Below, one piece after another: positions 1,003-21,631 of a stretch of DNA of 29,898 nt. The position numbers and the translations under genes are program-made. Below the pieces are notes generated by a model, which did no database searches, was not told the DNA's origin, and worked only from the letters and a program-made list of their open reading frames with translations. Numbering within the stretch: position 1 is the stretch's first letter; each line of letters begins with the position of its first letter. Origin of the DNA: Rhodospirillales bacterium (lineage in GTDB: Bacteria; Pseudomonadota; Alphaproteobacteria; Bin95); NCBI GenBank assembly GCA_038143065.1, contig JAYQLI010000008.1:1-29898 (forward strand). The letters are read 5' to 3'.

Positions 1003-2236
1003 GTGCGACACTTGCGAGATGATACTGTTTTGATCTTGGATGGTGAAGTTCGTGTGTATCGCCGCGAACGTAGTCGTAGATGGCAGGCTGCATTTAGCAT
1101 TGATGGCAAAGCTATACGGATCAGCACTGGGAAAAGATCTGGATGAAGCCAAAGAAATCGCCCGTGACACCTACCTAGAATATAAGTTCCGACACAAGAA
1201 TGATCTCCCTGTGATTACCAAGAAGTTTGCAGATGTAGCGCGACTTGCTATTGCTGATATGCGCAAGCAGTTGGACGCGGGCTTGGGCAAGAAAGTCTAT
1301 GCAGATTACATCGTTTGCATCGAGCGCTACCTCATTCCCTATTTTGGCTCACAGTACGTAACCTCTGTTGATTATGAGAAGGTGCAAAGCTTCTATGAGT
1401 GGCGCAGAGCAAAGATGGGTAGGGAGCCCAAAGCAAGTACGCTCAACACACATAACTCTGCGATGAACCGCGTGTTTGATGAAGCTGTGGCACGGGGGTT
1501 TCTGGCACATAAGAACGTTCCAATGCTTGTGAACAAAGGTGAGAAGAGCGAACGGCGCCCAGATTTTACGCGCGAAGAATACGCAACCATGATCCGCAAA
1601 CTACCGCACTGGATCAAACAGGGCAAGGCTGGGCAAACCCACCGACATGCGATATCTCATGCGGGATTATGTGCTCATATTGGCCAACACGGGTATGCGC
1701 CATGGGACTGAAGCGCTTAACCTAAACTGGAAACACATCACGCTGTTTGAGGAAAATGATCTTCAATACCTTGAAATGAGTGTGAGAGGGAAAACGGGCA
1801 GGCGGGATATCATCTGCCGTAGCGGAACCATCAACTATCTAAAACGCATTCATGAGCGGGCAGAGGACCTGAATCACATGAGCTTCGAGCAGCTCCTAAA
1901 GAGCGCGTAGATCTGCCAGTATTTAGACTGCCCGATGGGACCGTGAGTAAAAACATCCACCAGACCTTCCGCGCATTCATGAAAGAGAGCGAGCTGATCA
2001 AATGCCCACGCACAGGCCTTAACAGAACGCTCTACAGCCTGCGCCATACTTACGCGACATTTGCATTAATCAACGATGGAATGGATATACATGCACTGGC
2101 CATACAGATGGGCACAAGCATTGGCATGATTGAACGCCACTACAGCCATCTTACACCAAGGCTTAAGAAAGACATGCTCACGGGCAAACGATATGAACTC
2201 AGCAGAGCCGAGTATCAGGAAAAGGCTTTAAAATGA
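1003..2236 (+). CDS. Tyrosine recombinase / phage-type integrase (frameshifts near 1135, 1640, 1905)
   Basis: AAGGAG RBS then GTG. Arm-binding-like N-terminus VRVYRRERSRRWQAAF...RISTG. Catalytic motifs NTGMR, GKTG, YSLRHTYAT and MGTSIGMIERHY lie across ORFs 1040-1711, 1647-1910 and 1943-2236. Confidence 0.92.
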
Positions 2237-2848: not shown

Positions 2849-2907
2849 CAAAGCTGACCTTCGGGGCTGAAGACGTAAATGTCTGCTATGCGGACAAAGC
2901 GTAATTT
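2849..2907. repeat. Array of 13-bp imperfect inverted elements (R-16-L-4-R), candidate recombination site
   Basis: CAAAGCTGACCTT (2849-2861), 16 nt, AATGTCTGCTATG (2878-2890), 4 nt, CAAAGCGTAATTT (2895-2907). The first pair is 10/13 complementary. Confidence 0.55.
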
Positions 2908-3009
2908 TGCGCCTACTTAATAAGTTGCTAACTTCCAGTCCTAATAACGTTTTAATTTCAAAAAAAGGCGCCGAAGCAATACGCAGCCATTGGCAAAAAA
3001 TATTTGCAA

Positions 3010-3903
3010 TTAAGTCGCCTGGATAATGCTTTTTCTGACGGTTTCAACGAACCTTTTAACAGTCTCGGAGTTACCCGACTTTCGAAATGCCACATATAAA
3101 TCGATCAGGTTTTCGGAGGGTTCAAAGGGGACGAAAGAGATCCCAGGCGGTGCAATATTCTTGACCCAGGCTGGTGCCAAGGCGATTCCTAGCCCATGGG
3201 CGACAAACTGCAGCAGGGTGGATTTGTCAATAATCTCACAAACTATATTTGGCTGGGCACCAATTTTTCGAAAACCACTCCACAAAGCCTCGTGCAGGAT
3301 TGGTCGCGCGTGCTTAGGGTAACCCACGATTGGTTGATCCGCGATGTCTGCTATGGACAGGGATACCGATCTTGAAAGAGGATCGTCTCGGCAAGGACCA
3401 CTACGATGGGTTGACGATGCAAAAGTTCGCTGGAAATAAAGTCATCTTCTAGGCGCGTCCGTACGAAGGCCACATCAGTTCTATGGGCAATCAACTCGTG
3501 GGAATGTTGTTCGGATGACGATATTTCCAGAACCTGTACATGCACCTTAAAATCGGTCTGCCGAAATGTTAGTAGAACCTGCGGTAGTAACATCGAAATT
3601 GCCTCATCAACACCGCTTACGCGAATGTGGTGAAGGTCCGACTCGGCGGTGTGGCGAACATTGGAAACCGATTTATCAATATCGGTCAGGATCCTTTTTG
3701 CATCTTGTGCAAATTCAGATCCGGCTTGGGTCAGACTGACTTGTCGAGTAGTTCTAAAAAACAGTCGGGCGCCCAGTTCGTGTTCCAACGAAGAAACCCG
3801 TTCAGAGAGAGCGGATTGGCTTAGCCCCTAGGCGTTCGCTTGCTTTCCTGAAATGAAGTTCTTCGGCGACAGCGATGAAACACTCCAGTTGTCTTATGTC
3901 CAA
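3010..3903 (-). CDS. LysR-family transcriptional regulator (frameshifts near 3830 and 3370)
   Basis: TTG start. MDIRQLECFIAVAEELHFRKASERLG..SQSALSERVSSLEHELGARLFFRTTRQVSLTQAG HTH; C-terminal VAHGLGIALAP. Confidence 0.92.
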
Positions 3904-3922
3904 TCCAATATCCTCTGCAGGT

Positions 3923-4543
3923 TCATTTTATAACGCTTATCCGCATTTTTTCATCCAATCCAGTCTCAAATTCGCGGATTGCAGAAGCGTAGCTCAACGT
4001 GTCAAGCGTATCGTCGCGGCCTCGGATCAGCGCTATTCGCGTGGCATCATCCATCTCGAACGGCACCGAACTTTCACCTGCGGCAATCATACGGCGCTCA
4101 AGGTTTATGGAAATCTCTGCGCCGCTTTGATTATCCGAAAATTGTAAAAGTAAGTCTCGCACTTCAGGAGATACGACCGGCAAAGCAAGACCATTTTTAC
4201 GCGCATTATCATAAAATATCCCAGCGAACCCTGTTCCTATACAGGCATCAATCTTCAATTGGCGCATTCCCCAGACGGCATGTTCTCGGCTTGAACCGCA
4301 TCCAAAATTATCTCCGACAACTAAGATTGTTGCTTGCGTCCAAGGCGTTTTATTTAGAATAAATTCTTGCCGCTTTTGGCCAGCTGCGTCAAAGCGCAGA
4401 TCGGCAAAGGTACCATCTGCCAAGCCTTCGCGGCTGATTGTAATCAAAAACCGTTTCGGCATGATCACATCCGTATCAACATTCGCCAGTGGCAAGGGGG
4501 CGGCGATTCCTTTAATAGTTTTTATCATTGGTTTGTCTTTCAC
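3923..4543 (-). CDS. leuD: 3-isopropylmalate dehydratase small subunit-like (LeuD paralog)
   Basis: Motifs NVDTDVIMPK, NFGCGSSREHAVW and FAGIFYDNARKNG. 4-bp overlap with the large subunit gene. Confidence 0.9.
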   Translation of the reverse strand: MKDKPMIKTIKGIAAPLPLANVDTDVIMPKRFLITISREGLADGTFADLRFDAAGQKRQEFILNKTPWTQATILVVGDNFGCGSSREHAVWGMRQLKIDACIGTGFAGIFYDNARKNGLALPVVSPEVRDLLLQFSDNQSGAEISINLERRMIAAGESSVPFEMDDATRIALIRGRDDTLDTLSYASAIREFETGLDEKMRISVIK

Positions 4544-5919
4544 TCAAAATCTCGTATGTCAGCCAGATGCCCACAAACGGCTGCTGCAGCGACCATTGCG
4601 GGTGACATTAGATGGGTGCGTGCGCCTCGGCCCTGCCGCCCTTCAAAATTCCGGTTAGTCGATGAAGCTACCCGTTCCCCCTCCATAGCAATATCGTCAT
4701 TCATCGCTAGACACATCGAACAGCCCGCCTCAGGGCGCCAATCAACCCCTGCGGTCTCGAAAATGGTGCGAAGGCCTTCGGATTCCGCCTTTAGGCGTGT
4801 CATGGCGGACCCAGGAACTACGATAGCTTCAACCCCCTCAGCCACTTGCCGGCCTTCCAATATTTTGGCTGCCTCTCGTAGATCTTCGATACGACTATTG
4901 GTACACGAGCCGATAAAGGCCGTGTCGATTTTGATCGATTGGGCCGCTTGCCCTTCTGTCAGCCCCATATACTGCAATGCGCGCTGCAGTGCCGCCTTAG
5001 CTTTGGGAGAGACGTAATCGAGAGCAGAAGGTACGTTCGCTGTTATCGGTACTGATTGGTCTGGACTGGTGCCCCAAGTGATCAAAGGCTCGATATCGGC
5101 CCCTGAAACGGTAACTTCCTTGTCAAATATGGCTCCGGAATCGCTGACCCAGTCTTCACCGCTAAATGCAAATTGACCGCTGTGCGGGTATCCTGTCAGC
5201 GCCGCTTCGGTGGTTTCATCTGCTGCGATTAAAGCCGCGCGGGCGCCCAGCTCGACTGCCATATTGCACACGGTCATACGGCCGGCCATATCAAGACCGA
5301 CAATAGCTGAGCCTGCAAACTCAACAGCAAAGCCGTTGGCTCCACCTGCACCCACGACTTGGACCACCTTCATTATGATGTCTTTTGCCGTGACGCCTGG
5401 TGCTGTAGTGCCTTCGACCGTAACGCGCATTGTCTTCATACGCTTATATCGTAGCGTTTGCGTTGCCAAAACATGTTCAACTTCAGAAGTACCAATGCCA
5501 AACCCCAAAGCCCCGAAGGCTCCATAGGTTGTTGTGTGGCTATCGCCGCATGCTATCAGCATGCCTGGCGCGACCAAGCCCTGCTCTGGAACTATAACAT
5601 GCTCAATGCCTTGGCGGGGATCACCCAAACCGTAAAATGCGATTTGATGCTTGGTACAGTTTTTTTCCAAATTATCGATCAGCAGCTTTGATTGTGCATC
5701 CGGTGCTTCGACACTGCGGGTGGCGTTAACATGATCGACCACGGCCAGATGTGCCTCCGGACGCCAGACCTTTAACCCCTTACTTTCCATACCAGAAAAC
5801 GCCTGCGGACTGGTATATTCATTCATGATGTGAAAATCGACATAAATCAGCATATCGCCATCGGGCAGATCACAAACCTTATGGTTATCCACCAGTTTAT
5901 CGTAGAGCGTGCGGGTCAT
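4540..5919 (-). CDS. leuC: 3-isopropylmalate dehydratase large subunit-like [4Fe-4S] hydro-lyase (LeuC paralog)
   Basis: TLYDK, TSPQAF, CGDSHTTTYGAFGALGFGIGTSEVEHVLATQ, cluster cysteines in IGSCTN and AGCSMCLAMN, STNRNFEGRQG. Confidence 0.93.
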   Translation of the reverse strand: MTRTLYDKLVDNHKVCDLPDGDMLIYVDFHIMNEYTSPQAFSGMESKGLKVWRPEAHLAVVDHVNATRSVEAPDAQSKLLIDNLEKNCTKHQIAFYGLGDPRQGIEHVIVPEQGLVAPGMLIACGDSHTTTYGAFGALGFGIGTSEVEHVLATQTLRYKRMKTMRVTVEGTTAPGVTAKDIIMKVVQVVGAGGANGFAVEFAGSAIVGLDMAGRMTVCNMAVELGARAALIAADETTEAALTGYPHSGQFAFSGEDWVSDSGAIFDKEVTVSGADIEPLITWGTSPDQSVPITANVPSALDYVSPKAKAALQRALQYMGLTEGQAAQSIKIDTAFIGSCTNSRIEDLREAAKILEGRQVAEGVEAIVVPGSAMTRLKAESEGLRTIFETAGVDWRPEAGCSMCLAMNDDIAMEGERVASSTNRNFEGRQGRGARTHLMSPAMVAAAAVCGHLADIRDFE

Positions 5920-5932
5920 TGAGCAGTTTCCT

Positions 5933-6824
5933 TCATATGGATCGGATTGCGGAAAAGAAGTCAGACATGCGCTCTGCTATGTCTTCAGGGCTCTCTTCAG
6001 CCATATAGTGAGAGGTATCGAGCGCCTCGCCCTCAACCTTTTCTGCCCGCTGCCGCCAGAGGCTAAGTGCGTCAAAGCATGTTTCGATTACTCCGCGTTT
6101 TGCCCAGAGCGTCAAGAGTGGCATGTCGAGTTTTCGTTCCCTGATCTGCGTTATCATGTTCAATATCGATGCTCGCGGCGGCACGGTAGTCTTCGCAGCT
6201 TGCATGAATGACCTCGGGGTTCGCGAAGGCGCTCAGGTATTCAGTCAGAGCTTCGCAGGAAAACGGGTTTTTTGCCCTTTGCCTGTTTAAAGCATTTCAT
6301 CTTCCAGAACGTTTCGGGATCTGCTCCGATCATTTTTTCGGGCAGCGGGTCTGGCTGTGTCAGAAAAACCAGTGCCAGTAAGCCCGCGCAAATTCGACGC
6401 TAGTATTGGCATACATTTCGCGGGTAGGTGCGATGTCAAGCAAAGTCATGGCAGCAACACGATCAGGATGATCCAAACCCATCCGATGCGCCACCCGCGC
6501 CCCCCGATCATGGGCGCCAACCAGAAACCGTTCATGACCCAAATACCGCATCACAGCGACAACATCATTGGCCATAGCACGTTTTGAATAGGGCTGATGC
6601 GATGCATTTGACGCTGGTTTATCTGATTGACCATATCCGCGTAAATCGGGACAGACGATTTGATAAGAGCGTGCCAGAATTGGTGCCACACCGTGCCACA
6701 TAGCAGATGTCTGCGGATAACCGTGAAGAAGAACAAGCGGAGGTGCATCTTGAGGTCCAGCGCGGCGAACAAACAAAGTCGCACCGTCTCCTTCGATACG
6801 CTCGCGCACGAAACCCTCAAACAT
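5933..6824 (-). CDS. Alpha/beta hydrolase, fluoroacetate/haloacetate dehalogenase type (frameshifted)
   Basis: LLHGYPQT, PDLRGYG, YSKRAMA, GAHDRGARV, LLDIAPT, YWHWFF, CEDYRA (read in an intermediate frame near 6180-6197) and SHYMAEE. Confidence 0.88.
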
Positions 6825-7006
6825 TTTGAACTCCTTGGGTATGTTTAACTTTTATCCATTATTTCAGATTAAACCTGAATATTTAATCGTAAAAACTGAA
6901 CAGTTTTGCCGACTAATTCTTGCGTCAATCCCATGTAGTCTTTTTCAACAGAAGCCGCGCCAGAAGAAATCAGGGAACGCGGTAAAAAGAACCAAAGGAG
7001 GATATC

Positions 7007-7999
7007 ATGAAATTTCTGTTGAACACCGCATTATCTCTTACGTGTGCATTAGGTGCCACATCCGCGTTTGCCGCCTGCGATACAGGCGAAACCGTTATTA
7101 AATTTAGCCATGTTACCAACACTGACAAACATCCAAAGGGAATAGCAGCCACGTTGCTAGAGCAGCGCGTCAATGATGAGATGAACGGCAAGGCCTGTAT
7201 GGAGGTTTTTCCAAATTCAACCCTTTATGACGATAATAAAGTTCTTGAAGCATTGCTTCAGAATGATGTGCAGCTAGCAGCGCCTTCGCTGTCAAAGTTT
7301 GAGAAGTTCACCAAACAGTTCCGTATCTTTGACTTGCCTTTCATGTTCGAGAACATCGAAGCCGTCGATGCATTCCAAGGCTCTGATGCTGGGCAGGCTT
7401 TGCTAGACAGTATGCAAAAGCGTGGTCTTCAAGGTTTGACATTCTGGCATAACGGTATGAAACAAATGTCTGCTAATGTACCGTTGATGTCACCAGCAGA
7501 CGCTAATGGTCTTAAATTCCGTGTGATGTCGTCAGACGTTTTGGTTGCCCAAATGGAAGCACTCGGAGGAGCTCCACAAAAAATGGCCTTCTCTGAAGTC
7601 TATGGTGGGTTACAGCAAGGTGTCGTTGATGGGCAAGAAAACACGTGGTCAAACATTTATGGTAAGAAGTTTTTCGAAGTACAGGACGGTATCACGGAAA
7701 CCAACCACGGTATTATTGACTATCTGGTTGTGACCAGTGTTGATTGGCTTGATAGCCTGGAAGCCGATGTCCGCGACCAGTTTTTAACGATCTTGAACGA
7801 GGTAACTGAGCTTCGCAATGCTCAATCCTTTGCTGTAAACCAAGCCAACCGGCAAGCTATAATTGAGGCGGGCAGCACAGTTCGGACTCTAACGCCTGAA
7901 GAGCGTCAGGCATGGGTTGATGTTATGAAACCAGTCTGGGATCAATTCGCGGATGATGTTGGTCAGGACATGATCAACGCAGCACAATCCCTTAATTAA
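7007..7999 (+). CDS. dctP: TRAP transporter substrate-binding protein, C4-dicarboxylate type
   Basis: Signal peptide, IKFSHV, HPKG, VFPNSTLY, FDLPFMF, GLKFRV, FSEVYGGLQQGVVDGQEN; AAGGAGG RBS. Confidence 0.95.
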   Translation: MKFLLNTALSLTCALGATSAFAACDTGETVIKFSHVTNTDKHPKGIAATLLEQRVNDEMNGKACMEVFPNSTLYDDNKVLEALLQNDVQLAAPSLSKFEKFTKQFRIFDLPFMFENIEAVDAFQGSDAGQALLDSMQKRGLQGLTFWHNGMKQMSANVPLMSPADANGLKFRVMSSDVLVAQMEALGGAPQKMAFSEVYGGLQQGVVDGQENTWSNIYGKKFFEVQDGITETNHGIIDYLVVTSVDWLDSLEADVRDQFLTILNEVTELRNAQSFAVNQANRQAIIEAGSTVRTLTPEERQAWVDVMKPVWDQFADDVGQDMINAAQSLN

Positions 8000-8021
8000 A
8001 GTCACTTGATTCAACCTGTTC

Positions 8022-8042
8022 GGAGGCGTTTTAGACGCCTTC
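8022..8042 (+). terminator. Stem-loop after dctP (mRNA stabiliser or partial terminator)
   Basis: GGAGGCGT-TTTAG-ACGCCTTC, 8-bp stem with one G-U pair. Confidence 0.5.
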
Positions 8043-8065
8043 TAACATGCTTGGAAAGTTAAATT

Positions 8066-8731
8066 ATGAATCACTCAAAATCGTTTACCGATCGTATTGA
8101 GGAGACGTTGATCTCAGCCATTCTTGGCGTAATGACATTGATTACATTCGCCAACGTCGTGGCGCGGTATGGGTTCAACAAAAACATTCTTTGGGCTCTT
8201 GAGCTAACTGTCTTTCTCTTCGGTTGGTTGGTACTCCTCGGTGCCTCTTATGCCGTCAAAAAGGGTTCACATCTTGGTGTTGATATCGTCGTCAATATTC
8301 TAACTTCGAAATCACGCCGCGTCGTGGGTTTGGTTGCTGTGGCTGTATGCGTTGCCTTCAGCTTTCTAATGCTGAAAGGAGCTTGGGACTACTGGGCGAA
8401 TTTCGCCAATCTGCCGGGCACGGAGGGGCGTTGGTTTCCGCTCGGTTTTGAAGAAAAGTACCGCGACAAAGGATGGTACGAGGTCAATGACATCCCGCAT
8501 CCCGCCATATTAGGATGGATGGAAACGGTCTTCAATGAGGGCGAAGAATATGAGAAGATCCCACGCCTTTTGCCATATTTCGTTCTGCCATTGTCAATGG
8601 CGTTGATGCTTTTCCGGTTTCTACAAGCTGCATGGGCTCTCTGGGTCGGCGCGGCTGACCGTTTGGTGGCCAGTCATGAGGTTGAAGATGAAATCCAAGA
8701 TGCTCGTGAGCAGTTGAGAAAGAAATCCTGA
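8066..8731 (+). CDS. dctQ: TRAP transporter small permease
   Basis: IEETLI, FANVVARY, WALELTVFLFGWLVLLGASY, HLGVD; four hydrophobic segments. Confidence 0.93.
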   Translation: MNHSKSFTDRIEETLISAILGVMTLITFANVVARYGFNKNILWALELTVFLFGWLVLLGASYAVKKGSHLGVDIVVNILTSKSRRVVGLVAVAVCVAFSFLMLKGAWDYWANFANLPGTEGRWFPLGFEEKYRDKGWYEVNDIPHPAILGWMETVFNEGEEYEKIPRLLPYFVLPLSMALMLFRFLQAAWALWVGAADRLVASHEVEDEIQDAREQLRKKS

Positions 8732-10141
8732 TGGAAGTTGTTCTACTTTTTACCTTAGTCATCGGCATGCTGGTTATCGGTGTACCGATCGCGGTCGCAC
8801 TTGGCATGTCCTCCCTGCTGTTTTCTGCTAGCCTTTTCTGACAGTTCACTTGCATCAGTGGCCCAAACCCTGTTCAGCGCCTTCGAGGGCCACTATACGC
8901 TTCTTGCGATCCCGTTTTTTATTTTAGCCTCTTCGTTCATGACAACTGGCGGCGTTGCCCAGCGGATCATCCGGTTTTCAATTGCCTGTGTCGGACACTT
9001 GCCCGGTGGGCTGGCCATTGCCGGCGTTTTTGCCTGCATGCTGTTTGCAGCCCTGTCAGGTTCTTCACCAGCAACTGTCGTGGCAATTGGAACGATCGTT
9101 ATTGGAGGAATGATCCAAGTTGGCTATTCAAAGGATTTTGCTGCAGGTGTGATCTGCAATGCAGGTACGCTGGGAATTCTTATTCCGCCCTCTATCGTGA
9201 TGGTTGTCTATGCGGCTTCGGTGGAAGTTTCGGTTGGACGGATGTTTCTCGCTGGCGTCATCCCGGGGCTTTTGGCTGGCTTTATGCTTATGACCGCGAT
9301 TTATGTCATGGCAAAGGTGAAAAACTTACCCAAAGGCGAATGGCAAGGATGGAGAGAGGTTTTTGCCTCGGGACGCGAAGCCGGTTGGGGCCTTTTCTTA
9401 ATCGTGATTATCCTTGGCGGTATCTATGGCGGGGTATTCACCCCAACCGAAGCGGCCGCGGTTGCTGCGGTCTATGCATTCTTCATTGCCAACTTTATCT
9501 ACAAAGATATGGGTCCACTTGCCGAAAAAGGCCCGCGCGATCTTTCCGCTGCCTATGTAGAGGGTCCAAGAGGGACCACTTCTTTATGGCGTCAGCCTTG
9601 GGCGCTGGTGACAGCTTTCTTCCATCCCGATACAAAGCACACGCTGCTGGAAGCAGGCAAACTCACCGTTACGCTCTTATTTGTAATCGCAAACGCGCTC
9701 ATTCTTAAGCATGTTCTGACGGATGAACAAGTTCCACAACATGTGGCTAATGCAATGTTATCGGCGGGCTTCGGACCGGTTATGTTCCTTATCGTCGTGA
9801 ACATCATCCTGCTGATTGGTGGGCAGTTCATGGAGCCTTCAGGATTACTTGTGATTGTCGCTCCACTGGTCTTTCCAATTGCGATAGAACTGGGCATTGA
9901 TCCGATTCACCTCGGTATCATTATGGTTGTTAACATGGAAATTGGTATGATCACGCCACCGGTTGGGTTAAATTTATTTGTCACTTCAGGCGTTGCTGGC
10001 ATGCCAATGATGTCGGTCGTCAAGGCTGCGCTTCCATTCCTAGGCGTTCTTTTTGTTTTCTTGATCTTGGTAACCTACGTGCCTTGGATTTCGACCTTTC
10101 TACCCAACCTCATCATGGGGCCGGAAATCATTTTGAAGTAG
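8731..10141 (+). CDS. dctM: TRAP transporter large permease (frameshift near 8820)
   Basis: ATG overlaps the dctQ stop (TGATG). LLAIPFFILA, FAALSGSSPAT, GTLGILIPPSI, FTPTEAAA, EIGMITPPVGLNLFV. Confidence 0.95.
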
Positions 10142-10312
10142 TATTATTGGCCGAAACAGACTGGTGGCACCTGAAGAGGTGCTGCCTTGTTTTCTGCCGA
10201 ACTGAAGACGCTTCTCATTTAGCTTTTGACGGCTCAGGCCAATCACTATGTTCTGCACTTTTGAGGAAAGGATTTAGCCTCCCGCTTATTCCTTCAGTCG
10301 ACGCTTTGCAGC

Positions 10313-10373
10313 AACGGCTACTTTGGGCTCATTGCCAGTCATTTCGCTGCGCTTTGAATGAATGTCCGCTCTG
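10313..10373. repeat. Array of 13-bp imperfect inverted elements (L-4-R-17-L), candidate recombination site
   Basis: AACGGCTACTTTG (10313-10325), 4 nt, CATTGCCAGTCATT (10330-10343), 17 nt, AATGTCCGCTCTG (10361-10373; 11/13 identical to 2878-2890). Confidence 0.55.
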
Positions 10374-10388: not shown

Positions 10389-10954
10389 TCACAGCAACTC
10401 CACTGCCTGACTAAGCTGATCACTATTCACATCAATATATCTCTGCGTTGTGCTGATATGCGAATGCCCTGCAAGTTCGGCGAGTAACCGTACTCCCACG
10501 CCTTTGTTTGCTAATCGGGTGATATATGTGCGCCGTCCACTATGGCTGGATGCATCTTTAAGACCGCAGGCTTTATAGATGTCCAAAAATAGCTGGCACA
10601 TTGTGTTTGCCGAAAAGTGCCCGCCTTTTTGACTCTCAAATAGAGGACGATCTAACTCTTGCAAACATATACTTTTGGCATAGGTGGCAAGCGCTTTTCT
10701 TAAGCGCTGATTGAGATACACAGTTCTGCGCTGCCCACCTTTGCTTTGATCCACGCCCAGAATAAACTGATCTCGCACAGCGCCTGTCTCATCAAATACG
10801 TCTCCTAGTTTAAGTGCCGCAATTCTTTGGCGCGTAGGCCTGCATAAAAGCTAACCATGAATATTGTCGTGTCACGAACTGGATGACGGCGACTGCGGCA
10901 GTAGTGTAATACTCTGCGAAACTGTGCTTCATTTAGTGTTTGTGCCTGCCGCAT
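10389..10954 (-). CDS. Short (~188 aa) catalytic-domain-only tyrosine recombinase (frameshift near 10825)
   Basis: AAGGAG RBS. MRQAQTLNEAQFRRVL...RDTTIFMVSFYAGLRAKE, SKGG, SSHSGRRTY, LAGHSHISTTQRY: complete R-K-H-R-H-Y set. Confidence 0.92.
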
Positions 10955-16473: not shown

Positions 16474-16576
16474 AAATTCTCCCTAGATCTGTCAATTTTC
16501 AAATAATCAAGTGACGATTTGGTTGTGGTTCTTTTTATATTTTAACGCTATTTTAGAACTAGATAAACATTTTTTT

Positions 16577-16610
16577 GCAAAATTATTTGCTTTATGGCAT
16601 AAAAAATTGC
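16577..16610. promoter_or_regulatory. Two GCA-N8-TGC candidate operators
   Basis: GCAAAATTATTTGC (16577-16590) and GCATAAAAAATTGC (16597-16610) in the divergent ATPase/regulator promoter region. Confidence 0.6.
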
Positions 16611-16646
16611 ATATATACGTTTTTTATTGTGTTTAAAAGGATGGAA

Positions 16647-17807
16647 ATGACAGAGAAACAATCTTCTAAATTAGACTTTGAAAAGTTGATGTCTGATATA
16701 GAAAACGGTATGCGCGATATGGGTCGGAGCGCGCGCAGAATTGCTGAATTTCTGTATTCCAACACTGATGAAGCAGCATTGTTATCTACTGCTGAGGTGG
16801 CGCAAGCCTGTCATGTGCACTCTTCCTCAGTAGTCCGCTTTGCTCAAACTTTAGGATTTAGTGGATATAAACAGCTGCAGGGTGTTTTGAAAACGCAATA
16901 TAAGTCAAATCTAGAACGTCTAGAGACACTGCAATCGTCTGAGCCAATTGAAACTTCGGGAAGACGCTTCAGTATTTTTGTTTTGGCCGACTCAGGGCGA
17001 TCATTCAACGAGGCATTGCGGACTGCAGCACTGAAGTTTGCGGAAACCGATAATGAAATCACTATTGAAGGCGATTATGTGGTTTCTAATGAAATAGAGC
17101 CGAAAGAGTTCGCGAATAAAATCGAAAAAGCTTCAAAAAAATATGATGCAATATTTTTAGTTGCGAGAGACCACCCTTTGATCAATGACGCTGTGCGAAA
17201 GGCCGTCGAGCATGGCGCATTCGTAATTTGTTTAACGACAGATTTGCCAGCTTCTGGCCGCACTTGCTACGTTGGTTCTGATCAATACGCTTCCGGGTCT
17301 TCTGCCGCTTGGTTAGTTGGTAAAATGGCCCATAATCCGCAACGCAGCCGTGTTCTTCTGGTTTATAGTGTGCCGTTTCGATGCCAACAAGATAGAGAGC
17401 AGGGATTTCGGCATATATTACGAACTGAGTTTCCTCATTTGATACTAGACGAACGCGTATCGTCAAATGAAGATTCGTTAATTACCCACAAATCAGTCAG
17501 GCAATATATCGAAAAAAATGGACCTCCTGCAGCAATTTACAATGTTTCAGGTGCCAATTTAGGTATTGGGAAAGCATTGGACGAGCAGAATTTGCTTTCT
17601 GATGTAGTTTTCATCGGTCATGAGCTGAATGTGAATTCTAAGCAGTTGCTGCGGATAGGCGCCATGGACGTCACGATTGGTCATAATATGGATGCAGAAA
17701 TCTCCTTGGCAGTTGATGCGCTGAGACAGGCGCGGTCGGGTAAAGTGCCTCAAAACGCGATTGTGGAAAGTCAAATATATACGCGCTACAACATCCCTGA
17801 ACTTTAA
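16647..17807 (+). CDS. Transcriptional regulator: RpiR/MurR-type HTH fused to a LacI/periplasmic-binding-protein-like sensor domain
   Basis: N-terminal RRIAEFL...STAEVAQACHVHSSSVVRFAQTLGFSGYKQLQ. C-terminal VICLTTDLP..R..YVGSDQYASGSSAAWLVG, DREQGFR, IYNVSGAN, FIGHEL. Uninterrupted ORF. Confidence 0.88.
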   Translation: MTEKQSSKLDFEKLMSDIENGMRDMGRSARRIAEFLYSNTDEAALLSTAEVAQACHVHSSSVVRFAQTLGFSGYKQLQGVLKTQYKSNLERLETLQSSEPIETSGRRFSIFVLADSGRSFNEALRTAALKFAETDNEITIEGDYVVSNEIEPKEFANKIEKASKKYDAIFLVARDHPLINDAVRKAVEHGAFVICLTTDLPASGRTCYVGSDQYASGSSAAWLVGKMAHNPQRSRVLLVYSVPFRCQQDREQGFRHILRTEFPHLILDERVSSNEDSLITHKSVRQYIEKNGPPAAIYNVSGANLGIGKALDEQNLLSDVVFIGHELNVNSKQLLRIGAMDVTIGHNMDAEISLAVDALRQARSGKVPQNAIVESQIYTRYNIPEL

Positions 17808-19580: not shown

Positions 19581-21412
19581 TTATACTCCGATGCGTTGTT
19601 TGGCGCGGATCGCATCATGATCTTTGCGCGCTTCATTAACGCTGTCACGGGCAGAGATTTCGGGCACGCCGACATCCCAAGACGCATCCCCCGGGGTCCA
19701 TTCATAAGCATCAGAGGGAATGGTCAAAACGGTGGTTTTGTCATTGGCTTGGGCCCATTTCATCGCTTCATCCAATTCACCCAGCGTTTCCACGCGGCGC
19801 CCATAAGCGCCCATGGCTTCGGCATGTTTGGCAAAATCAACCGAAAATGGCGCTTTCACGCGGCTGTCTTTGATCAGGTTGTTAAAGGAGGCTCCGCCTT
19901 TGTAATTCTGCAGGCGGTTGATGATCGCATACCCGCCATTATCGGGCACAATCACGATAATTTTATGCCCGCTCAGCACGGTGGAATAAATATCCGAATT
20001 CATCATCATATAGGTGCCATCACCGATAATCACGATAGGGGTGCGGTTTTCATCGGCCATTGCGGCGCCCCAACCCGCGGGGATTTCATAGCCCATGCAC
20101 GAAAACCCAAATTCGGTATCTACCGTATTGGGGGCTTTGACGCGCCAGCATTTATTCACTTCGCCCGGAGGGCCGCCAGCCGCGGTGATCACCAGATCTT
20201 CTGTTTTGGCATTGTCTTGCACCACTTTAATCACCTGCGCGTAGGAGGGTATATGCGCATTGCTGGGTTTTTGCAGCTCATCAATCAAGCTGTCCCATTT
20301 GGCCATTTCATCGCGGCCTTTCTCCATCCAAGTGCCAGGGGCCGACCAGTCGCCCAAAGCCGCATCCATTTCGCGCAGGCTTTCGCGGGCATCCCCGACC
20401 ACCGAGATGGCGCGGTGTTTGGTGGCATCAAAGCGCGCTGCATTGATCGAAATGAATTGGGCATCGGCTTTAAAGCTGGTCCAAGACCCAGTAGTGAAAT
20501 CTTGCAAACGGGTGCCTATCGCCACAATCACATCTGCCTCGGCGGCCATGGCATTGGCGGATGCTGATCCGGTTACGCCGATGCCCCCGACATAGGCGGG
20601 GTGCTCGTGCAGCACGGCACCTTTGCCGGCAATGGTTTCGCAAAGCGGAATGCCGCGGGCTTGCGCAAAATCACCCAACACCTCTTCAGCCAATGAATAG
20701 CGCACCCCGCCGCCCGAAATAATCAAAGGCTTTTTGGCGGCTTTGAGGGCTGCGATCGCCTTATCAAATTGCTGTAAATCGGGGCGCGCGCGCGGAATGT
20801 GATGCAGCGTGGGTTCAAAAACGCGGCTGGATAGTCAAAAGCGATTTCCTGCGTGTCTTGGCACAGGCCGATAAAGGCCGGCCCGCAATCGGCTGGATCG
20901 AGCATTGCGGCAATCGCTTGTGGGAAGGATGAGATGATCTGCTCGGGATGCGTGATGCGATCCCAATAGCGGGTGACGGCTTTGAAGCTTTCATTCACGG
21001 TCAGGGTTGGGTTGTTGAAATGCTCAACTTGTTGCAGCACCGGATCTGGGCGGTTTGAAAATGTATCCACCCGAAAGCAGCAGCACCGGTAGGCTGGAAT
21101 GGGCCACGCCGGCCGCAGTGACCATATTGGTGGCTCCGGGCCCCACAGAGGAGGTGGCGATCATCAATTGCCGCCGCCGTTTAGCCTTGGCATAATCGCA
21201 GCAAGCGCCATCGATTGCTCGTTTTGTCCGCGCCACGTTGGCAATTGATCCTGCACCGCTTCTAAAGCTTCGGCCAAACAGGTCACATTGCCATGCCCGA
21301 AAATTGGAACACGCCGGCAAAGAGTGGCACGCGCTCGCCCTCGGTGAATTGATTGCACAGATATCGAACAACAGCCTGCGCCATCGTCAATCTGATTGTG
21401 TTTTGCGGCCAT
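19581..21412 (-). CDS. iolD: 3D-(3,5/4)-trihydroxycyclohexane-1,2-dione acylhydrolase, ThDP-dependent (frameshifted)
   Basis: IFGHGNV, WRGQNEQSMA, SSVGPGATNMVTAA, RPDPVLQQVE, GTRLQDFTTGS, EFGFSCMGYEI, GDGTYMMMNS, DNGGYAIINRLQ, WDVGVPE. Confidence 0.95.
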
Positions 21413-21469
21413 GTTTGATTCTCCGATGCCATAGATTTTAAATATTGTTAACTCTATTTCTCTAGACTT

Positions 21470-21631
21470 GCAATTAAAATTGCAAAAATAGTATGCTATA
21501 ACGCAATTATTTTTGCAGAATGGTTCAATGTTTTTTGGTATTTTTCTTACTAAAGTATGTTGAACCATATTTTTTGAAATGTTTTGAAAATTTAATTGAC
21601 AAAATAATTTCAATTATGCAACATTTATTGC
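21470..21631. promoter_or_regulatory. AT-rich iolD/iolG divergent promoter with three GCA-N8-TGC candidate operators
   Basis: GCAATTAAAATTGC (21470-21483), GCAATTATTTTTGC (21503-21516), GCAACATTTATTGC (21618-21631); TTGACA at 21596-21601. Confidence 0.65.

What the first reader, a model, noticed from the sequence alone, without database searches (positions are those of the whole stretch)
3010..10141. Fluoroacetate-dehalogenase-type hydrolase in an operon with a LeuCD paralog, divergent from a dicarboxylate TRAP transporter
Seen: hydrolase, leuC-like, leuD-like and lysR are tightly spaced on one strand (gaps of 13, -4 and 19 bp), and there is no leuB. Established: the hydrolase has the full fluoroacetate dehalogenase residue set. 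This includes the Asp nucleophile with two Arg (HDRGAR), the acid Asp (LDI), the halide-pocket His-Trp (WHW) and Tyr (CEDYRA), and the base His. Inference: a mobile pathway for uptake and breakdown of a halogenated (di)carboxylate, for example halo-maleate, -succinate or -malate, by hydration/isomerisation plus hydrolytic dehalogenation. I know no characterised pathway with this pairing; it could bear on natural organohalogen turnover and C-F cleavage.
Basis: partly seen in the sequence, partly recalled or inferred. Interest (0 to 1): 0.75.

Follow-up and report, generated by a model that had tools for sequence, protein, structure and literature searches.

The report
Conserved marine dehalogenase-type hydrolase–LeuCD operon
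A fluoroacetate-dehalogenase-type enzyme, a spare copy of the leucine-pathway isomerase, a regulator and a dicarboxylate importer form a gene cluster that recurs in many marine bacteria, and its substrate is still unknown.

Summary
On the minus strand lie hydrolase, leuC-like, leuD-like and lysR (gaps 13, -4, 19 bp), divergent from dctPQM, with no leuB on the contig. The hydrolase carries every fluoroacetate dehalogenase (FAcD) catalytic and pocket residue. Its best solved relative is an experimentally verified FAcD.

In the window the hydrolase (4 frame changes), lysR (2) and dctM (1) are broken. Near-identical contigs from three independent marine metagenome studies lack all seven indels, so the breaks are probably assembly errors.

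The linkage is strongly conserved. In 74 of 80 loci found with the LeuC paralog, the hydrolase sits directly upstream. leuD follows in 79 of 80, lysR in 64 of 80, and dctP is divergent in 49 of 74. The holders are mostly Roseobacter-group Alphaproteobacteria.

The LeuC is a separate clade from housekeeping LeuC. Other FAcD-like clades abut LeuB-like "tartrate dehydrogenase" genes.

Best reading: a mobile two-enzyme module for a C2-substituted (halo- or epoxy-) C4-dicarboxylate that passes through a (2R)-hydroxy-dicarboxylate. The substrate is inferred, not shown. My nine full-text searches found no paper describing the pairing.

The parts
2888..10333 (.). 7.45-kb module shared with locus L045 (88.4% nt identity over 7459 bp) and with a second copy on contig C12 (96.6% nt identity, 64 gap openings)
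3010..3903 (-). LysR-family regulator. It is read in three frames in the window, with breaks at 3825 and 3382. It is intact (297 aa) in L045 and in the metagenome contigs.
3923..4543 (-). LeuD-like small subunit (206 aa, intact; GCGSSREHA motif). It overlaps the end of leuC by 4 bp.
4540..5919 (-). LeuC-like large subunit (459 aa, intact; GDSHT, GSCTNSR and GCSMCLAMN motifs). It is a paralog, 52% identical to the housekeeping LeuC on C35.
5919..6824 (-). FAcD-family alpha/beta hydrolase. It has four frame changes in the window (about 6362, 6268, 6137-6139 and 5952). The intact ortholog, L045:5929-6837, is 302 aa.
6883..6916 (-). 34-bp near-palindrome in the divergent promoter region. Its core columns are invariant across 12 aligned loci from alpha- and gammaproteobacteria. 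It is a candidate operator for the LysR regulator (inferred).
7007..7999 (+). DctP solute-binding protein (330 aa, intact). Its best solved relatives are C4-dicarboxylate DctPs.
8066..8731 (+). DctQ small membrane subunit (221 aa, intact)
8731..10141 (+). DctM large membrane subunit. One frame change at 8821 cuts off the first 31 residues in the window. It is intact (469 aa) in L045 and in the metagenome contigs.
10163..10186 (+). terminator-like hairpin followed by a T-run, just after dctM (consensus scan only)
10389..10778 (-). fragment of a tyrosine recombinase (Phage_integrase catalytic domain) beside the module
1040..1711 (+). fragment with a weak match to the phage integrase central domain (21.8 bits, below Pfam's 27-bit cut-off), on the other side of the module

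Best explanation
**What it is.** This is one copy of a conserved, horizontally mobile catabolic module of marine bacteria. A LysR regulator controls a three-gene operon (FAcD-family hydrolase, LeuC-like, LeuD-like) and, in most versions, a divergent C4-dicarboxylate-type TRAP importer (DctPQM).

**Shown.**
- The gene set and order recur widely.
- The hydrolase has the complete Asp-His-Asp triad, two-Arg carboxylate clamp and His-Trp-Tyr pocket of FAcDs.
- The LeuCD is a dedicated paralog that exists beside a housekeeping LeuCD.
- The genes are intact in the natural population.

**Inferred mechanism.**
1. The transporter brings in a succinate-like dicarboxylate that carries a leaving group on C2. 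This could be a halide, or the oxygen of an epoxide as in epoxysuccinate.
2. The Asp nucleophile attacks C2 while the two Arg hold the neighbouring carboxylate. The ester intermediate is hydrolysed, which gives a (2R)-hydroxy-dicarboxylate of the D-malate or meso-tartrate type.
3. The Fe-S LeuCD paralog dehydrates or isomerises this product towards an oxo-acid. For example, meso-tartrate would give enol-oxaloacetate and then oxaloacetate.
4. In sister clusters a LeuB-like tartrate/D-malate dehydrogenase does the downstream step instead, or in addition.

The frame breaks in this window are most likely assembly errors.
For: **Linkage.**
- Of 80 loci retrieved with the LeuC paralog, 74 have the hydrolase directly upstream on the same strand. 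Three more have it within 3.3 kb, two are cut by a contig end, and one lacks it.
- leuD follows directly in 79 of 80 and lysR in 64 of 80. dctP is divergent and adjacent in 49 of the 74.
- In an independent sample of 151 Rhodobacterales genomes, 5 places matched the hydrolase at 82-84% identity. The 4 that I fetched all carry the full cluster. The fifth lies beside the cluster LeuC of locus L015.

**Family membership.**
- The intact ortholog matches 3QYJ at E 4.9e-94 and RPA1163 (3R3U) at E 2.1e-77, with all catalytic and pocket residues aligned.
- 3QYJ is NOS0089/Alr0039, listed as an active defluorinase in a review (PMC11022551, Table 2 passages).

**LeuCD is a paralog.**
- G000 has a separate LeuC at 52% identity on C35.
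- Four of 4 other cluster-bearing genomes also have a 52-54% housekeeping LeuC.
- The cluster LeuCs form a starred clade (SH-aLRT 99) apart from the housekeeping ones (quick tree).

**Evidence for a dicarboxylate, hydroxy-acid logic.**
- DctP matches succinate/malate-type DctPs at E 1e-100 to 1e-95.
- Related hydrolases abut "tartrate dehydrogenase" genes on Jannaschia and Ruegeria plasmids.
- Of the 40 best Rhodobacterales hydrolase loci, 18 have a LeuCD and/or LeuB-like neighbour.
- Variant clusters add a TctCAB transporter and a LeuB-like gene.
- Main-cluster genomes G042, G043 and G167 have no TtuC-like gene, so hydrolase plus LeuCD must suffice there.
- The LeuCD-linked hydrolases share a clade-specific cap-loop motif with two Lys, at positions 175 and 177.

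**The genes are intact in nature.** All seven frame-breaking indels are absent from near-identical contigs of three studies.

**Mobility.**
Against: - There is no biochemical evidence at all.
- The halide pocket is fully conserved, and the closest solved relatives are genuine fluoroacetate dehalogenases. A plain haloacetate substrate therefore remains possible.
- I know of no abundant halo- or epoxy-succinate in seawater (own knowledge, not a call).
- dctP is not adjacent in 22 of 74 loci that had room for it.
- In two loci dctPQM sits beside a DctB/DctD-type two-component pair, which suggests an ordinary C4-dicarboxylate importer.
- An aconitase-family tartrate dehydratase has no precedent that I know of.
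- Fourteen hydrolase loci at 52-60% identity have no leu-like neighbour. The association therefore belongs to particular clades and not to the whole family.
- Placing the two Lys near the pocket rests on a sequence alignment only.
Confidence: 0.5

Rival explanations
1. The hydrolase is a true haloacetate (fluoro-, chloro- or bromoacetate) dehalogenase that makes glycolate, used for detoxification or carbon. The LeuCD paralog serves a linked but different purpose. One possibility is an aconitase-family enzyme that copes with halo-citrate-type poisoning. Another is that it handles a second substrate of the same regulon.
For: - The FAcD residue set is complete, and the best matches are verified FAcDs.
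- Source annotations call close relatives "haloacetate dehalogenase".
- Marine organohalogen exposure of Rhodobacteraceae is discussed in the literature for another dehalogenase class (PMC5437341, passages).
Against: - A monocarboxylate substrate explains neither the C4-dicarboxylate-type DctP nor the repeated pairing with LeuCD, LeuB-like tartrate dehydrogenase and an enolase-superfamily gene.
- No glycolate-utilisation gene is conserved in the 80 loci.
- The clade has its own cap-loop signature.
Confidence: 0.22
2. In this particular strain the cluster is a decaying relic. The frameshifts are real, both copies are pseudogenised, and nothing is expressed as working protein.
For: - There are seven frame breaks in the C8 copy and many more in the C12 copy.
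- ORF cover is low on all small contigs (0.07-0.91, mostly 0.3-0.7) against 0.84 on C35.
- Integrase and IS remnants lie nearby.
Against: - Every one of the seven indels lies in or beside a short homopolymer.
- Every one is absent from contigs of three independent studies that otherwise show only a few differences per kilobase in their long pieces.
- leuC, leuD, dctP and dctQ are intact.
- Low ORF cover confined to small contigs is what poorly polished, low-coverage contigs look like.
Confidence: 0.12
3. The LeuCD is simply a second isopropylmalate isomerase for leucine synthesis, and its position next to the hydrolase has no functional meaning.
For: LeuC and LeuD pass NCBIfam's LeuC/LeuD cut-offs. 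TIGR00170 scores 579.1 against a cut-off of 560.25, and TIGR00171 scores 149.8 against 116.25.
Against: - A housekeeping LeuC coexists in G000 and in 4 of 4 other carriers, including a 2.3-Mb genome.
- The paralog forms its own clade.
- It stays next to the hydrolase in 74 of 80 loci across Alpha- and Gammaproteobacteria.
- There is no leuA or leuB in the core cluster.
Confidence: 0.04

Closest known systems
Fluoroacetate dehalogenases of the alpha/beta-hydrolase fold (RPA1163 / PDB 3R3U; FAc-DEX FA1 / 1Y37; NOS0089 = Alr0039 / 3QYJ; DAR3835 / 8SDC)
   Same: - It has the same fold and full-length similarity (E 4.9e-94 to 3.4e-75).
- It has the Asp nucleophile in HDRGAR with both Arg, the acid Asp, the base His, the His-Trp pair and the Tyr of the halide pocket.
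   Different: - It belongs to a distinct clade, at least 60% identical within itself and roughly half identical to the solved enzymes by eye from the alignments.
- That clade has its own conserved cap-loop motif (W-K-L-K-C-F-N-Q-A).
- It has a fixed genomic partnership with LeuCD, LysR and DctPQM. My nine full-text searches found no such partnership described for any FAcD.
- Its activity is untested.
3-isopropylmalate dehydratase LeuCD (EC 4.2.1.33) and its catabolic relatives such as maleate hydratase (the latter recalled, not tested here)
   Same: - It has two subunits with the aconitase and swivel domains.
- It has the Fe-S cysteine motifs and passes the NCBIfam LeuC/LeuD cut-offs.
   Different: - It is not the leucine-pathway copy. 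It is 52% identical to the housekeeping LeuC and sits in a separate clade.
- It has no leuA or leuB partner in the core cluster, and it is regulated with a hydrolase and a transporter.
Tartrate / D-malate utilisation enzymes of the LeuB family (tartrate dehydrogenase TtuC, D-malate dehydrogenase DmlA; functions recalled from the literature)
   Same: Sister clades of the hydrolase abut genes annotated as tartrate dehydrogenase. Variant clusters carry a LeuB-like gene after leuD.
   Different: The window's cluster and its closest relatives have no LeuB-like gene, and three of their host genomes have none of the TtuC type.
Epoxide hydrolases of the same superfamily (PA2086 / PDB 4BAT) and the epoxysuccinate hydrolases (the latter recalled)
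   Same: An Asp-nucleophile alpha/beta hydrolase. 4BAT, deposited as a probable epoxide hydrolase, is the next-best solved group after the FAcDs (E 2.3e-67).
   Different: The known cis-epoxysuccinate hydrolases belong to other folds (recalled). No epoxide activity has been tested for this clade.
DctPQM C4-dicarboxylate TRAP transporters
   Same: DctP matches entries deposited as C4-dicarboxylate DctPs (4O94, 9DSY, 4O7M, 4MX6) at E 1e-100 to 1e-95. DctQ and DctM are typical.
   Different: Here it is placed divergently from, and moves together with, the hydrolase operon and a LysR regulator. In 2 loci (L013, L024) it keeps the classical sensor-kinase and sigma-54 regulator pair as well.

Membership tests
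Fluoroacetate dehalogenase (alpha/beta hydrolase, EC 3.8.1.3) | alpha/beta-hydrolase fold | tested here: met
   Pfam Abhydrolase_1 at E 5e-28 on the N-terminal piece. The intact ortholog aligns over its full length to solved FAcDs.
Fluoroacetate dehalogenase (alpha/beta hydrolase, EC 3.8.1.3) | Asp nucleophile followed by two Arg that bind the substrate carboxylate (D-R-x-x-R) | tested here: met
   HDRGAR is in the window. It aligns to the DRGAR of 3R3U, 3QYJ, 9C9F and 8SDC.
Fluoroacetate dehalogenase (alpha/beta hydrolase, EC 3.8.1.3) | catalytic acid Asp and base His | tested here: met
   LLDIAPT and SHYMAEE (window) or THYMAEE (L045) align to the LDI and GHF motifs of 3R3U.
Fluoroacetate dehalogenase (alpha/beta hydrolase, EC 3.8.1.3) | halide pocket His-Trp plus Tyr | tested here: met
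   YWHWFF and CEDYRA align to the YHW and CEDYRA of 3R3U.
Fluoroacetate dehalogenase (alpha/beta hydrolase, EC 3.8.1.3) | one uninterrupted reading frame | tested here: inconclusive
   The window has four frame changes. All four are absent from near-identical metagenome contigs of three studies and from L045.
Fluoroacetate dehalogenase (alpha/beta hydrolase, EC 3.8.1.3) | hydrolytic release of fluoride or chloride from haloacetate | not testable with these tools
   This needs an enzyme assay.
3-isopropylmalate dehydratase LeuCD of leucine biosynthesis | aconitase-family large subunit and swivel-domain small subunit that pass the curated LeuC/LeuD models | tested here: met
   PRK12466 scores 675.7 bits (cut-off 531). 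TIGR00170 scores 579.1 (cut-off 560.25). TIGR00171 scores 149.8 (cut-off 116.25).
3-isopropylmalate dehydratase LeuCD of leucine biosynthesis | being the genome's leucine-pathway copy (orthology with housekeeping LeuC) | tested here: not met
   A separate LeuC/LeuD lies on C35 at 52%/40% identity. Four of 4 other carriers also hold a 52-54% housekeeping LeuC. The paralog forms a separate starred clade.
3-isopropylmalate dehydratase LeuCD of leucine biosynthesis | activity on 2-/3-isopropylmalate | not testable with these tools
   This needs a reconstituted Fe-S enzyme assay or complementation.
DctPQM C4-dicarboxylate TRAP transporter | three components DctP, DctQ and DctM | tested here: met
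   Pfam DctP E 2.3e-102, DctQ E 9.1e-28, DctM E 2e-106. TIGR00787 and TIGR00786 are above their cut-offs.
DctPQM C4-dicarboxylate TRAP transporter | binding protein of the succinate/malate/fumarate-binding group | tested here: inconclusive
   The best solved relatives are entries deposited as C4-dicarboxylate DctPs (E 1e-100 to 1e-95). I did not compare ligand-contact residues, and no binding was measured.
LysR-type transcriptional regulator | N-terminal HTH_1 domain and LysR substrate-binding domain | tested here: met
   HTH_1 and LysR_substrate match on the window's pieces. The ortholog in L045 is intact at 297 aa.

The most novel reading that the evidence does not exclude
The hydrolase of this operon is not a haloacetate dehalogenase in nature. 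Instead it is an epoxy- or 2-substituted-succinate hydrolase. It could be the gene for the long-orphan trans-epoxysuccinate hydrolase activity (EC number and history recalled, not checked here), which makes meso-tartrate.

On this reading the LeuCD paralog is a new aconitase-family (meso-)tartrate dehydratase that yields oxaloacetate. Together they would form a previously unrecognised two-enzyme route that is common in pelagic Roseobacter-group bacteria. The sister clusters would send the same intermediate through a LeuB-like tartrate dehydrogenase.
Probability: 0.15. Interest if true: 0.8.

Novelty: new variant of a known kind. Interest (0 to 1): 0.62.

Why it matters
FAcD-family enzymes are studied almost only as defluorinases, for fluoroacetate and PFAS work, and their natural roles are poorly known.

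This work shows that one large marine clade of the family is locked into an operon with a non-leucine LeuCD and a dicarboxylate importer. Sister clades are locked to tartrate-dehydrogenase-like genes. Close relatives of the hydrolase fill the protein search: 8000 of 8000 scored candidates passed E 1e-30, and many come from ocean surveys.

This gives a concrete, testable hypothesis for the native chemistry of these enzymes. It also points to an uncharacterised carbon route in abundant ocean bacteria. If the substrate turns out to be halogenated, the cluster bears on natural organohalogen turnover. If it is an epoxide, it redefines part of the "dehalogenase" family.

Tried and rejected
- **Literature.** Nine full-text searches found no paper on the hydrolase-LeuCD pairing.
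  - paired haloacetate or fluoroacetate dehalogenase with isopropylmalate or TRAP.
  - paired dehalogenase terms with Roseobacter-group names.
  - One search covered FAcD, difluoroacetate and Nostoc. One search covered epoxysuccinate and tartrate terms. One search covered maleate hydratase with isopropylmalate.
  - The single hit was only a reference-list entry.
- **Earlier notes of this scan.** Lookups by place, sequence and words gave nothing relevant.
- **Same-genus relatives.** The hydrolase was not found in 9 of 9 same-genus genomes searched at E 1e-20 (completeness 87-100%). They gave no synteny information.
- **More distant relatives.** The 50-57% homologs in family relatives (L002-L010) had no leuC within their roughly 1.5-kb flanks.
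- **Plasmid contexts.** Four plasmid contexts showed no informative partner: Pacificitalea, Sphingomonas, a Comamonadaceae isolate and Acetobacter.
- **D-malate as the common hub.** I considered it and rated it lower for the main cluster. Three carriers lack any TtuC/DmlA-type gene, and to my knowledge maleate hydration is not usefully reversible.
- **LeuD substrate loop.** I did not try to read specificity from it, because I could not map it reliably onto solved IPMI or homoaconitase loops.
- **RNA run X15.** Its contigs overlap parts of dctP, dctQ, dctM, leuD and lysR and the start of the hydrolase gene. Contigs cannot show strand or level, so I do not count this as evidence of expression.
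- **Structure tools.** I ran no structure prediction or complex prediction. Sequence similarity to solved FAcDs already settles the fold, and the tools return no coordinates for pocket analysis.


Full report
**1. What is in the window**

ORF listing and family scans show the following layout.
- Minus strand: an alpha/beta hydrolase (6824..5933), a LeuC-like gene (5919..4540, 459 aa), a LeuD-like gene (4543..3923, 206 aa) and a LysR regulator (about 3903..3010).
- Plus strand, divergent: dctP (7007-7999), dctQ (8066-8731) and dctM (to 10141).

A LeuB-like query matched the assembly only on contig C35, in 5 of 5 matches. The window is the whole of contig C8 of a 4.63-Mb, 52-contig assembly.

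**2. The hydrolase belongs to the FAcD family by sequence**

- The N-terminal piece matches solved FAcDs at E 8e-51 to 5e-41.
- The intact ortholog L045:5929-6837 (302 aa; 94% identical to the window's N-terminal 154-aa piece) matches 3QYJ at E 4.9e-94, 9C9F at 2.9e-90, 8SDC at 8.6e-85, 3R3U at 2.1e-77 and 1Y37 at 3.4e-75.
- In those alignments the nucleophile Asp with both Arg (HDRGAR), the acid Asp (LDI), His-Trp (WHW), Tyr (CEDYRA) and the base His all line up.
- A review lists 3QYJ as NOS0089/Alr0039 with measured fluoroacetate and difluoroacetate defluorination (PMC11022551, passages from Table 2 and text).

Entries deposited as probable epoxide hydrolase (4BAT group) are the next-best solved relatives (E 2.3e-67).

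**3. The frame breaks are probably not real**

- Three-frame translation shows four frame changes in the hydrolase. lysR has two and dctM has one.
- All seven lie in or beside short homopolymers.
- I laid Logan contigs from three DNA metagenome runs of three different studies, plus one RNA run, on 3000-10200.
- The only indels listed were at 3382, 3825, 5952, 6139, 6268, 6362/6363 and 8821. These are exactly the seven breaking sites. At five of them the corrected form carries full depth in all three DNA runs. At 6268 and 8821 it carries full depth in two runs and about half the depth in X1. At 6362/6363 two alternative one-base insertions share the repair, with about half the depth there in X5.
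- The long pieces differ otherwise by only a few letters per kilobase (for example 3 in 1434).
- ORF cover is 0.84 on the 2.86-Mb contig C35 but mostly 0.3-0.7 on the small contigs.

The simplest reading is poor polishing of the small contigs. A truly decayed strain remains possible (rival 2).

**4. A second copy and mobility**

- The whole block recurs on contig C12 at 96.6% nucleotide identity, with 64 gap openings and many more frame breaks.
- A dctM fragment recurs on C50.
- Locus L045, a MAG labelled Gammaproteobacteria, shares the block at 88.4% identity over 7459 bp. This sets the module limits at window 2888-10333.
- L045 also shares IS sequences with several small contigs of this assembly.
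- Integrase fragments lie on both sides of the module. The match on the left side is weak (21.8 bits, below Pfam's 27-bit cut-off).
- The hydrolase was not found in 9 of 9 same-genus genomes searched.
- In a quick maximum-likelihood tree, the window's LeuC and L045 sit inside a starred clade with Amylibacter and HTCC2255 sequences (SH-aLRT 96). They lie deep among Roseobacter-group Alphaproteobacteria (the careful search did not finish).

This is the pattern expected for transfer from Alphaproteobacteria, provided contig C8 is correctly binned with C35. I could not verify the binning.

**5. The linkage is conserved**

A scan of one genome per species with the LeuC paralog found 274 relatives, of which the best 80 were kept.

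| Feature | Count |
|---|---|
| Hydrolase directly upstream, same strand | 74 of 80 |
| Hydrolase within 3.3 kb, opposite strand | 3 of 80 |
| Locus cut by a contig end at leuC | 2 of 80 |
| No hydrolase (a Brocadiaceae MAG) | 1 of 80 |
| leuD directly after leuC | 79 of 80 (the other is cut by a contig end) |
| lysR directly after leuD | 64 of 80 (7 of the rest end at a contig end) |
| dctP divergent and adjacent | 49 of the 74 (22 not adjacent with room, 3 unknown) |

- No other enzyme is conserved in the flanks.
- The holders are mostly marine Roseobacter-group genera, including Planktomarina, Amylibacter, HTCC2255, HTCC2083, HTCC2150, Octadecabacter, Ruegeria and Sulfitobacter. Other holders include Kordiimonas, Enterovibrio, Pseudomonas marincola and Pseudomonadales MAGs.
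- The hydrolase has thousands of close relatives in metagenomes: 8000 of 8000 scored candidates had E <= 1e-30. Where a source names them, they are called haloacetate dehalogenase or alpha/beta hydrolase.
- A 34-bp near-palindrome in the divergent promoter (window 6883-6916) keeps its core across 12 aligned loci from both classes. It is a plausible LysR operator.

**6. The LeuCD is a dedicated paralog**

- It passes the curated LeuC/LeuD models and keeps the Fe-S and catalytic motifs.
- G000 has another LeuCD at 52%/40% identity and a third LeuC-like gene.
- Four of 4 other carriers, including a 2.3-Mb genome, hold a separate LeuC at 52-54% identity.
- The cluster LeuCs form a clade apart from the housekeeping ones.

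**7. Clues to the chemistry**

- DctP is closest to the succinate/malate-type DctPs. In two loci dctPQM keeps a DctB/DctD-type regulator pair.
- Variant clusters (LeuC 61% identical) replace DctPQM with TctCAB. Two of the three add a LeuB-like dehydrogenase after leuD.
- On a Jannaschia plasmid, a 60.7%-identical hydrolase lies between an enolase-superfamily gene and a "tartrate dehydrogenase". On a Ruegeria conchae plasmid, a 46% homolog directly follows a tartrate dehydrogenase.
- I drew a sample of 151 Rhodobacterales genomes without regard to LeuC and fetched the 40 best hydrolase places.

| Hydrolase identity to L045 | Loci | Neighbours |
|---|---|---|
| 82-84% | 4 | all 4 carry the full cluster |
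| 52-60% | 23 | 5 abut a LeuB-like gene (most with lysR and TctCA); 2 carry TctCA plus LeuCD |
| 47-51% | 9 | 7 follow a LeuB-like gene |
| 45% or less | 4 | none has such a neighbour |

- In total, 18 of the 40 loci have a LeuCD and/or LeuB-like neighbour.
- Of the remaining loci at 52-60% identity, nine lie near a LysR gene and an MttB-family methyltransferase gene, six of them also with a hydroxyacid-dehydrogenase gene. The hydrolase is convergent to these genes.
- Three alphaproteobacterial carriers of the main cluster have no TtuC-type gene, so hydrolase plus LeuCD must reach central metabolism alone there.
- LeuCD-linked hydrolases share a cap-loop signature with two conserved Lys. It is partly shared by the Jannaschia enzyme.

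**8. Interpretation**

All the partner families act on malate-type (2R)-hydroxy-dicarboxylates. This is established knowledge of the LeuCD/LeuB, TtuC/DmlA and D-tartrate dehydratase families, recalled and not tested here. An Asp-nucleophile enzyme with a carboxylate clamp makes a hydroxy acid by displacement at the carbon next to a carboxylate.

The most economical scheme is as follows.
1. A C2-substituted succinate is imported.
2. The hydrolase converts it, with inversion, into a D-malate- or tartrate-type product.
3. LeuCD and/or a LeuB-like enzyme carries the product on.

With trans-epoxysuccinate the product would be meso-tartrate. Meso-tartrate has the same relative configuration as (2R,3S)-3-isopropylmalate, and dehydration would give enol-oxaloacetate. 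That would explain why two enzymes suffice.

A plain haloacetate fits the enzyme but fits its neighbours poorly. None of this has been tested biochemically.

**9. Novelty**

My nine full-text searches found no description of this pairing. Supplementary files could not be read. The enzyme families are known. The conserved operon, its sister architectures and the implied pathway appear to be undescribed.

Noticed in passing
G000 contigs C1-C52 other than C35: Long-ORF cover is 0.84 on the 2.86-Mb contig C35 but mostly 0.3-0.7 on the 51 small contigs (1.77 Mb in all). The small contigs look either badly polished or heavily decayed. Their link to C35 rests on binning only.
   Followed up: partly
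G000 C12:49505-56932 and C50:58884-59913: C12 holds a second copy of the whole 7.45-kb module (96.6% nucleotide identity, 64 gap openings, many frame breaks). C50 holds a further dctM fragment.
   Followed up: partly
window 6883-6916: A 34-bp near-palindrome lies between the hydrolase and dctP. Its core is invariant in 12 aligned loci from Alpha- and Gammaproteobacteria. It is a candidate LysR operator.
   Followed up: partly
L026, L027, L028, L030, L033: Five records labelled as different genera (Loktanella, Tateyamaria, Shimia and two unnamed) carry near-identical clusters. Four of the LeuC proteins are identical. Percent identities and coordinates match except in the short contig L028. Possible causes are very recent transfer, shared contamination or mislabelling.
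   Followed up: no
L034 and L052 (both Pelagimonas varians DSM 23678): One genome holds two diverged copies of the hydrolase-LeuCD cluster (LeuC 87% and 77% identical to the window's). The second copy lies next to an ABC peptide-type transporter and an M20 peptidase gene.
   Followed up: no
L102-L105, L107, L111-L113, L115: A FAcD-like clade at 55-59% identity has no leu-like neighbour. It lies convergent to a LysR gene and an MttB-family methyltransferase gene, with a 3-hydroxyisobutyrate-dehydrogenase-like gene in six of the loci. It also lies beside dynamin-like GTPase genes.
   Followed up: partly
L045:1275-1979 and G000 C48, C10, C38, C12: A transposase gene (my guess: IS6 family, not scanned) next to the module in L045 has copies at 80-91% nucleotide identity on several small contigs of this assembly. 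A 140-bp element at the end of L045 recurs on C4 and C10 (95-96%) and on C50 (87%).
   Followed up: no
window 16575-17807 and 19581-21613: One ORF joins an RpiR-type HTH to a periplasmic-binding-protein domain (410 aa). Beside it, a thiamine-pyrophosphate enzyme gene appears to be split into several fragments. This is consistent with further frame errors elsewhere on the contig.
   Followed up: no
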